Below, one piece after another: positions 21,813 to 21,975 of a DNA stretch of 64,000 nucleotides; the stretch's first letter is position 1, and the number at the start of each line of letters is the position of its first letter. The translations under genes were made by a program, and so were the position numbers. The notes below the pieces were generated by a model. The model saw nothing but the letters and a program-made list of their open reading frames with translations. It did no database searches and was not told where the DNA came from. This DNA comes from Octopus sinensis (lineage: Eukaryota). Where the stretch lies: assembly GCF_006345805.1 (NCBI RefSeq), contig NC_042997.1:15996001-16060000 (forward strand). Direction: 5' to 3'.

Positions 21813-21844
21813 TTCTGTGTTGCATCTGAGATGCAGAACGGAAT

Positions 21845-21895
21845 TTTGTTAGTGAACAGGTCGCGGTCTCAAAGCGACGAAAATATTTTGGCAAA
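21845..21895 (+). ncRNA. Minimal type I hammerhead-like motif, G3-C8 core variant
   Basis: TTTGTTA GTGAACA G GTCGC ggtctcaaa GCGAC GAA AATATT T TGGCAAA. Confidence 0.6.
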
Positions 21896-21975
21896 TTAAA
21901 TTTAAATGTTGAAGTGAATCTAACGGTTTTTGTGTTTCTTAAATGGCTTATAAACACCTTCCACGCTACTATTGT

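What the first reader, a model, noticed from the sequence alone, without database searches (positions are those of the whole stretch)
21816..21897. G3-C8 swapped-core hammerhead candidate
Seen: TTTGTTA|GTGAACA|G|GTCGC-ggtctcaaa-GCGAC|GAA|AATATT|T|TGGCAAA. This gives a 7-bp stem I (2 G-U), a 5-bp stem II and a palindromic stem III. The core differs from CUGAAGA exactly at positions 3 and 8, and reciprocally. A small palindrome tgcatct-g-agatgca lies just 5'. Established: the C3G/G8C double swap restores the 3-8 pair. Inference: with 47708 and the canonical copies, three different 3-8 pairs occur in one 64-kb window. The UUU cleavage triplet is weak, so activity is uncertain.
Basis: partly seen in the sequence, partly recalled or inferred. 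Interest (0 to 1): 0.72.

Follow-up and report, generated by a model that had tools for sequence, protein, structure and literature searches.

The report
Swapped-core hammerhead in Penelope retroelement end
This is one of thousands of short end-pieces of a Penelope-type jumping gene that carry a hammerhead-shaped RNA motif with a core base pair naturally reversed (G-C instead of C-G); it likely cuts itself only slowly, cutting is untested, and the copies were likely made from capped RNA that had not been cut.

Summary
The motif is real (21845-21895, +). It is the solo pseudo-LTR of a Penelope-like retroelement with RT and GIY-YIG domains, with at least 4,843 exact 35-mer matches in the genome. 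G3:C8 is the family state: 924 of 1,018 flank-matched copies, none C3:G8; 57 of 62 copies picked without the core; no common variant in runs under four organism labels. A sister family (55% protein identity) has the same fold with C3:G8 and compensated stems, so the swap is natural covariation. Copies pile up at one 5' start, often with an extra G, and 69 of 70 run through the predicted cut site. Capped, uncut RNA was likely the template. The 5' palindrome is an insertion fold-back, not part of the ribozyme. Cleavage is untested; slow, dimer- or protein-assisted cutting is most likely. I found natural G3:C8 in no paper read, but Lunse 2017 was not held. The scan already reported this family at many other loci of this genome.

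The parts
21811..21827 (-).
   Evidence: 14 of 17 Watson-Crick with 21829-21845; fold-backs of varying length sit at the 5' end of many copies
21828..21828 (+). Extra G at the 5' junction, absent from the element (which has C here); likely reverse-transcribed 5' cap
   Evidence: G in 11 of 15 arms that begin at this point in a set picked on a downstream 35-mer, p = 1e-4 against 0.25; loose ends at the same place in three runs
21829..21977 (+). Solo pseudo-LTR of an EN+ Penelope-like element, from the inferred transcription start to the first 3' end, without the ~60-nt tail
   Evidence: 144 of 159 aligned letters match the ORF-linked copy L075; family structure
21845..21851 (+). Hammerhead stem I, 5' strand
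21852..21859 (+). Core G3-U4-G5-A6-A7-C8-A9 plus one extra G between positions 9 and 10.1
   Evidence: family counts
21860..21878 (+). Stem II (5 bp, G10.1-C11.1) and 9-nt loop; the loop varies among subfamilies
21879..21888 (+). G12-A13-A14, 6-nt palindromic helix III segment, U17; predicted cut between 21888 and 21889
   Evidence: cut site by analogy with the hammerhead consensus, not shown
21889..21895 (+). Hammerhead stem I, 3' strand
21978..22100 (.). (TA)n tract at the 3' junction, the usual flank of this family
47708..47744 (-). U3:A8 minimal hammerhead of another repeat family (comparison)
   Evidence: U3:A8 in 24 of 24 fetched relatives; GIY-YIG or RT remnants in 5 of those 24 loci
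40288..40337 (-). C3:G8 hammerhead of a third repeat family, beside an assembly gap (comparison)
   Evidence: C3:G8 in 11 of 11 fetched relatives

Best explanation
The site is a solo end-piece (pseudo-LTR) of an abundant Penelope-like retroelement whose minimal type I hammerhead carries G3:C8 as its family state, and it likely acts as a slow ribozyme that would cut only as a dimer or with the element's protein bound. Shown: the motif, its place in the pseudo-LTR about 1 kb behind an RT/GIY-YIG gene, the fixed G3:C8, and C3:G8 with compensated stems in a sister family. Inferred: transcription starts 16 nt before stem I; the protein starts reverse transcription at one of two internal sites downstream and runs off the capped 5' end, which gives the 150-230 nt solo and fold-back copies such as this one; the hammerhead was uncut in those templates. 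Cutting at about +60 would remove the cap and trim tandem transcripts, so it likely serves as a late or regulated processing step and is not needed for copying. This single copy, with no tandem partner, is probably inert.
For: Family state: 924 G3:C8, 37 non-G3, 58 non-C8, 0 C3:G8 among 1,018 copies with matched flanks; 57 of 62 arms chosen on a 35-mer 52 nt downstream of the cut site. Runs under four organism labels (3 studies) show no variant at >= 8% at either position; common variants fall on 4 of 8 loop II positions but 2 of 42 core and stem positions, both keeping a G-U pair (Fisher p = 0.004). Parent: 722-aa 5'-truncated ORF in L102; GIY-YIG above Pfam cut-off, E = 1.8e-5; 12 distinct loci carry the EN end upstream of the hammerhead on the same strand, 11 of them within 1.4 kb, sharing 0.7-1.5 kb of upstream sequence. 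Sister family: 55% identity over 720 aa, C3:G8 in 36 of 38 parsed arms, same extra G and stem geometry; 4 of 14 pairs change on both sides, including 3-8. Engineered C3G/G8C partly restores cleavage, and the Anolis PLE hammerhead needs protein (PMC11167929). Minimal PLE hammerheads cleave weakly and only as multimers (PMC4209133). Closing helix III in a monomer costs about 5 kcal/mol; the dimer form does not. 5' ends: 50 of 74 arms begin 42-63 nt before the cut site, peak at -59, extra G in 11 of 15.
Against: No cleavage was measured. Only 1 of 70 arms that reach the cut site begins there, and that one is an ambiguous fold-back junction (upper 95% bound 7.7%), so the genome holds no trace of cut templates. 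The covariation rests on two families, in effect one event per pair; pair-count controls are not significant (92 of 500 shuffles). The sister family has C instead of A at position 9, so its own activity is unsure. The best two-molecule fold is not the hammerhead dimer (-25.2 against -20.0 kcal/mol). Copy counts are not all independent: 7 of 20 sampled G3:C8 copies share one junction and flank. RT matches to Pfam are weak (E = 0.1 for this family, 4.5e-4 for the sister).
Confidence: 0.62

Rival explanations
1. The fold is kept but is catalytically dead or nearly so; the sequence is conserved as a protein-binding structure or as part of the internal promoter, which it would overlap (+17 to +67 from the inferred start).
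For: 69 of 70 arms run through the cut site. In the Anolis element, hammerhead mutants did not change insertion in vitro and no reads ended at the cut site (PMC11167929). Naiad elements thrive without canonical hammerheads (PMC8557442).
Against: A reciprocal change at exactly 3 and 8, with U4, G5, A6, A9, G12-A14 and A15.1-U16.1 kept, fits selection on the active-state pair (pair described in PMC3884650). Promoter overlap would not explain complementarity.
Confidence: 0.27
2. The ribozyme is efficient in vivo and cuts tandem transcripts into unit-length RNAs that circularise and serve as the main template (Cervera and de la Pena model).
For: Copies made from a circle would also cross the cut site, so the long ORF-linked copies do not exclude it. 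G3:C8 is kept in young and old subfamilies.
Against: Most copies stop at one point with an extra G, which fits a linear capped RNA and not a circle. Stem III is unstable in the monomer.
Confidence: 0.1
3. The match is chance, or a single decayed copy of a canonical hammerhead family.
For: None beyond the shortness of the motif.
Against: 0 strong hits in 30 shuffles; 924 copies with G3:C8 and none with C3:G8; position in a PLE pseudo-LTR.
Confidence: 0.01

Closest known systems
Minimal type I hammerheads in pseudo-LTRs of metazoan Penelope-like elements (Cervera and de la Pena 2014, PMC4209133; main text parts 1-2 of 4, supplement parts 1-2 of 3 read)
   Same: Place in the pLTR, type I layout, one extra nucleotide between 9 and 10.1, G10.1-C11.1, short palindromic helix III, mostly solo copies, predicted dimer action.
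   Different: Core pair is G3:C8. The 56 motifs of Fig. S3 show C3:G8, U3:A8 or U3:G8 and none G3:C8. Stem I is longer (7 bp).
Natural U3:A8 hammerheads (Perreault et al. 2011, PMC3088659, section 8 read; also PMC4209133)
   Same: Natural covariation at the 3-8 tertiary pair.
   Different: U3:A8 needs two transitions and keeps pyrimidine-purine order; G3:C8 needs two transversions and reverses it. The section names only U3:A8.
Engineered C3G/G8C double mutants (PAc hammerhead, Frangieh et al. 2024, PMC11167929, passages and section 3 part 1; review PMC8495972, passage)
   Same: Same swap, partial rescue of cleavage, tested in a PLE hammerhead that needs protein.
   Different: Laboratory mutants; here the swap is the natural majority state of a high-copy family.
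Neptune/Nematis-type EN+ Penelope-like elements (as described in Craig et al. 2021, PMC8557442, passages)
   Same: [quoted passage not shown]
   Different: DKS in place of DKG, tail of about 60 nt instead of 30-40, about 1 kb of microsatellite-rich 3' region; clade not placed on a tree.
Small hammerhead variants of Lunse, Weinberg and Breaker 2017 (not read; title only)
   Same: By title: small PLE-associated hammerhead variants that cleave as dimers.
   Different: Unknown; whether a G3:C8 class is listed there could not be checked.

Membership tests
Hammerhead ribozyme, type I | Three-way junction with open stem I, closed stem II and A15.1-U16.1 | tested here: met
   helix III needs a partner strand
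Hammerhead ribozyme, type I | U4, G5, A6, A9, G12, A13, A14 and an NUH triplet | tested here: met
   triplet UUU
Hammerhead ribozyme, type I | Watson-Crick pair between positions 3 and 8 | tested here: met
   G3:C8 in 924 of 1,018 copies; covaries with C3:G8 in the sister family
Hammerhead ribozyme, type I | Site-specific self-cleavage after position 17 | not testable with these tools
   No raw RNA reads were available; genomic copies show no excess of ends at the site
Hammerhead ribozyme, type I | Tertiary contact between stems/loops I and II | not tested
   Loop II varies among subfamilies; no contact was modelled
Metazoan PLE minimal hammerhead (Cervera 2014 consensus) | Core consensus CUGANGA (or UUGANAA) | tested here: not met
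   Core is GUGAACA; hence a variant and not a plain member
Metazoan PLE minimal hammerhead (Cervera 2014 consensus) | Extra nucleotide between 9 and 10.1, G10.1-C11.1, palindromic helix III | tested here: met
Metazoan PLE minimal hammerhead (Cervera 2014 consensus) | Located in the pseudo-LTR of a PLE | tested here: met
EN+ Penelope-like element | One ORF with RT and C-terminal GIY-YIG (CCHH type) | tested here: met
   L102 ORF; GIY-YIG E = 1.8e-5, RT weak; 34% identity along the ORF to P0119, which carries RVT_1
EN+ Penelope-like element | Inverted 5'-truncated partner copies, optional 3' tail, microsatellite targets | tested here: met
Neptune or Nematis clade | CX2-5CxxC linker before the endonuclease | tested here: met
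   C-x3-C-x2-C in the translation; definition
Neptune or Nematis clade | Phylogenetic placement of the RT | not tested
   No reference set of named PLE proteins was at hand
Non-LTR retrozyme | Protein-free tandem repeats of a hammerhead-bearing monomer | tested here: not met
   Copies are solo, inverted or ORF-linked; the one short tandem seen (L007) repeats flank together with the unit

The most novel reading that the evidence does not exclude
G3:C8 is a naturally selected, slowed hammerhead placed 60 nt behind the element's capped start. It lets uncut RNA be translated and copied, and removes the cap only when two transcripts pair through the palindrome or the element's protein binds: a dosage-sensing off-switch for a retroelement, and the first natural hammerhead class with the reversed 3-8 pair.
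Probability: 0.15. Interest if true: 0.78.

Novelty: new variant of a known kind. Interest (0 to 1): 0.5.

Why it matters
Descriptor searches for hammerheads are built on CUGANGA (PMC8557442 methods), so a G3:C8 class is missed, and elements said to lack hammerheads may carry such variants. The family gives natural confirmation of the 3-8 pair in the orientation that, in the papers I could read, appears only as a lab mutant, with a sister family as built-in control. The fixed 5' start with an extra G bears on the open question of what PLE hammerheads do: it suggests that most short copies come from capped, uncut RNA and gives exact coordinates for a direct test. The advance is modest: the class, natural U3:A8 covariation and partial activity of the engineered swap are all published.

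Tried and rejected
Rfam: no hammerhead among 150 listed of 247 matches. Expression: no RNA holder listed; four runs guessed to be RNA were held only as contigs and showed no joint matching an intron and no usable ends; neither evidence for nor against. Intron: the sequence just 5' of the unit looks like a branch point, pyrimidine tract and AG acceptor (278 exact matches), but no spliced form was seen, and the pile-up falls 2 nt before the AG end with a G where the element and the putative exon both have C; a transcription start fits better, and an intron is not excluded. Cleavage fossil: no excess of 5' ends at the cut site. G3:G8 as a surviving intermediate between C3:G8 and G3:C8: 20 of 30 such copies against 20 G3:C8 copies showed no linked diagnostic column and equal divergence (4.4% and 4.7%); rejected. 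L090 as a second parent: its ORF belongs to the sister family and has its own C3:G8 motif; the G3:C8 copy there is a separate insertion, which corrects my note 2 (as does 50, not 51, of 74). Same-strand pairs 1-5 kb apart held no PLE ORF (L061-L065). Whole-ORF Pfam scan and PDB search gave nothing useful. Papers not held: Lunse 2017, Przybilski and Hammann 2007, Martick and Scott 2006. Eleven long 5' alignments partly run through microsatellites and overstate upstream extent; L108 was dropped from the extra-G count (16 to 15) because it continues upstream with one change.

Full report
Observation. A descriptor scan allowing any pair at positions 3 and 8 found three sites in the window; this is the only one with stem I >= 7 and stem II >= 5, and 30 block-shuffled windows gave no hit of that strength. 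Folding gives stems I and II with helix III open. The z-score of -3.8 includes the upstream hairpin and should not be credited to the ribozyme. No hammerhead was among the 150 listed of 247 Rfam matches.

It is one copy of a large family. A DNA search of the own genome (2.7 Gb) gave 1,264 candidates, 40 scored. A 35-mer that leaves out the core has 2,124 exact matches and a 35-mer further downstream has 4,843. With 33 flanking places fixed, 924 copies have G3:C8, 37 have another base at 3, 58 another base at 8 (one copy is in both sets), and none has C3:G8. In 74 arms picked only on the downstream 35-mer, 62 cover the core and 57 are G3:C8. These counts are not all independent insertions: 7 of 20 sampled copies share one junction and flank. 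Contigs of four runs under four organism labels (three studies; one may be the source of the assembly) show no variant at 8% or more at positions 3 or 8. Common variants lie at 4 of 8 loop II positions and at 2 of 42 core and stem positions, both of which keep a G-U pair (p = 0.004; the loop/stem split was made by me after seeing the table).

The parent element. Copies that extend upstream share 0.7-1.5 kb at 81-94% identity and lead to an ORF end. L102 holds a 722-residue 5'-truncated frame with RT motifs, a C-x3-C-x2-C linker and a GIY-YIG domain with two cysteines and two histidines. The endonuclease passes Pfam's cut-off (E = 1.8e-5); the RT match is weak. The best database relative is an Octopus vulgaris protein at 56%, so the host is likely an octopus. 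Twelve distinct loci have the endonuclease end upstream of the hammerhead on the same strand, 11 within 1.4 kb; these loci were chosen on a motif next to the hammerhead, so the evidence is the shared upstream sequence. Inverted partner copies, an optional tail of about 60 nt and (TA)n flanks match the description of PLE insertions in PMC8557442 (passages). The linker points to Neptune or Nematis; I built no tree.

Natural covariation. A second family in the same genome, 55% identical over 720 residues, carries about 500 nt behind its stop codon a motif of the same geometry with C3:G8 in 36 of 38 parsed arms (some arms are one locus seen twice). Aligned, 4 of 14 pairs change on both sides: 3-8, one pair of stem II and two of stem I. 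This is two families, so in effect one event per pair; the pair-count control is not significant (92 of 500), and one row of that alignment was cut off register and does not cover the core. The sister has C at position 9, itself a departure.

How this copy arose. Of 74 arms, 50 begin 42-63 nt before the predicted cut, with the peak at -59. The element has C at -60, but 11 of 15 arms that begin at -59 have G there (p = 1e-4; L108 dropped). Loose ends pile up at the same place in three runs (41-65 contigs each), with a consensus first letter that reads G on the element strand. An untemplated 5' G is described for L1 as a possible mark of a reverse-transcribed cap (PMC9341517, passages). The start lies in TCAG, which resembles an initiator (motif recalled, from no call). 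In the Anolis element, reverse transcription starts at two internal sites that bound the tail, and uncut RNA is the main substrate (PMC11167929). The window copy fits: start at 21829, extra G at 21828, end at 21977 without tail, (TA)n behind, and a 17-nt inverted duplicate of its own 5' end in front. Of 70 arms that reach the cut site, 69 pass through it. So these templates were uncut; this does not say whether cut RNA exists, since cut RNA may be degraded or circularised.

Mechanism. Shown: motif, family state, parent, sister covariation, 5' end pattern. Established: the 3-8 Watson-Crick pair belongs to the active fold (PMC3884650); the engineered double swap partly rescues cleavage; minimal PLE hammerheads cut weakly and only as multimers. 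Computed: closing helix III in one molecule costs about 5 kcal/mol, the swapped dimer (-20.0) is close to two monomers (-22.2), and a non-hammerhead dimer is lower still (-25.2). Inferred: a slow, partner- or protein-assisted ribozyme whose cut would remove the cap and trim tandem transcripts, but which is not required for copying (0.62). Rivals: a dead but conserved structure (0.27), an efficient circle-making ribozyme (0.10), chance (0.01).

Comparison with print. The architecture is that of the minimal PLE hammerheads of PMC4209133, whose 56 aligned motifs include no G3:C8. Natural covariation is reported there and in PMC3088659 (section 8) only as U3:A8. Searches for 'C3G' with 'G8C', 'G3-C8', 'positions 3 and 8' and hammerhead with octopus (listing only) returned only engineered cases or nothing relevant. 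Lunse 2017, by its title the closest survey, was not held, nor were Przybilski and Hammann 2007 or Martick and Scott 2006; Figs S6-S7 of Perreault 2011 were not read. I put the chance that natural G3:C8 is undescribed at a little over one half. Also seen: bioRxiv 10.64898/2026.07.22.740005 part 1 of 5, passages of PMC6765202 and PMC10085705.

Earlier notes of this scan report the same family at many other loci of this genome and in another genome. I consulted them; they are unchecked and not independent support. In the notes listed I did not see the extra-G start described for this family.

Verdict. A real, natural core variant of a known ribozyme class in a known kind of retroelement; catalysis untested. 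Interest 0.5.

Noticed in passing
L090:926-975 (+) and L177-L206: The sister PLE family (at least 150 near-identical endonuclease matches) has C instead of A at core position 9 in all 38 parsed arms, with a 3-bp stem I extended past a bulge.
   Followed up: partly
one search matches; L248-L267: Among changes at position 8, C to G (30) outnumbers the transition C to T (22); the G copies form no sub-lineage. Unexplained mutation hotspot.
   Followed up: partly
L034, L037, L040, L045, L270, L275-L278, L283, L286: One fold-back copy of this family with a fixed junction and shared flanks has itself been amplified many times, probably as a passenger of another repeat.
   Followed up: no
L075:1320-1400 (-); L063, L064: An ATG near the 3' end of the pseudo-LTR opens a frame that runs on through the tail, so the tail is likely the start of the ORF, as in the Anolis element.
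   Followed up: no
L075:1512-1715 (-): Microsatellite-filled stretch ending in a branch-point-like motif, pyrimidine tract and AG directly before the unit; a possible retained intron.
   Followed up: partly
window 24274-24318 (+): C3:G8 hammerhead-like motif with an extra A and a 6-bp stem II; stem I is broken in this copy.
   Followed up: no
window 21340-21700 (+): Two adjacent copies of another abundant repeat, one strand tRNA-like by recall, lie just upstream of the finding and also in many fetched loci.
   Followed up: no
L100:1534-1560: One decayed ORF-linked copy reads A3:U8, a fourth pairing, in a single copy.
   Followed up: no
window 40338-40437: Assembly gap (100 N) directly 5' of the C3:G8 motif; that family recurs at about 550-nt spacing in several places, as a retrozyme array would.
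   Followed up: no
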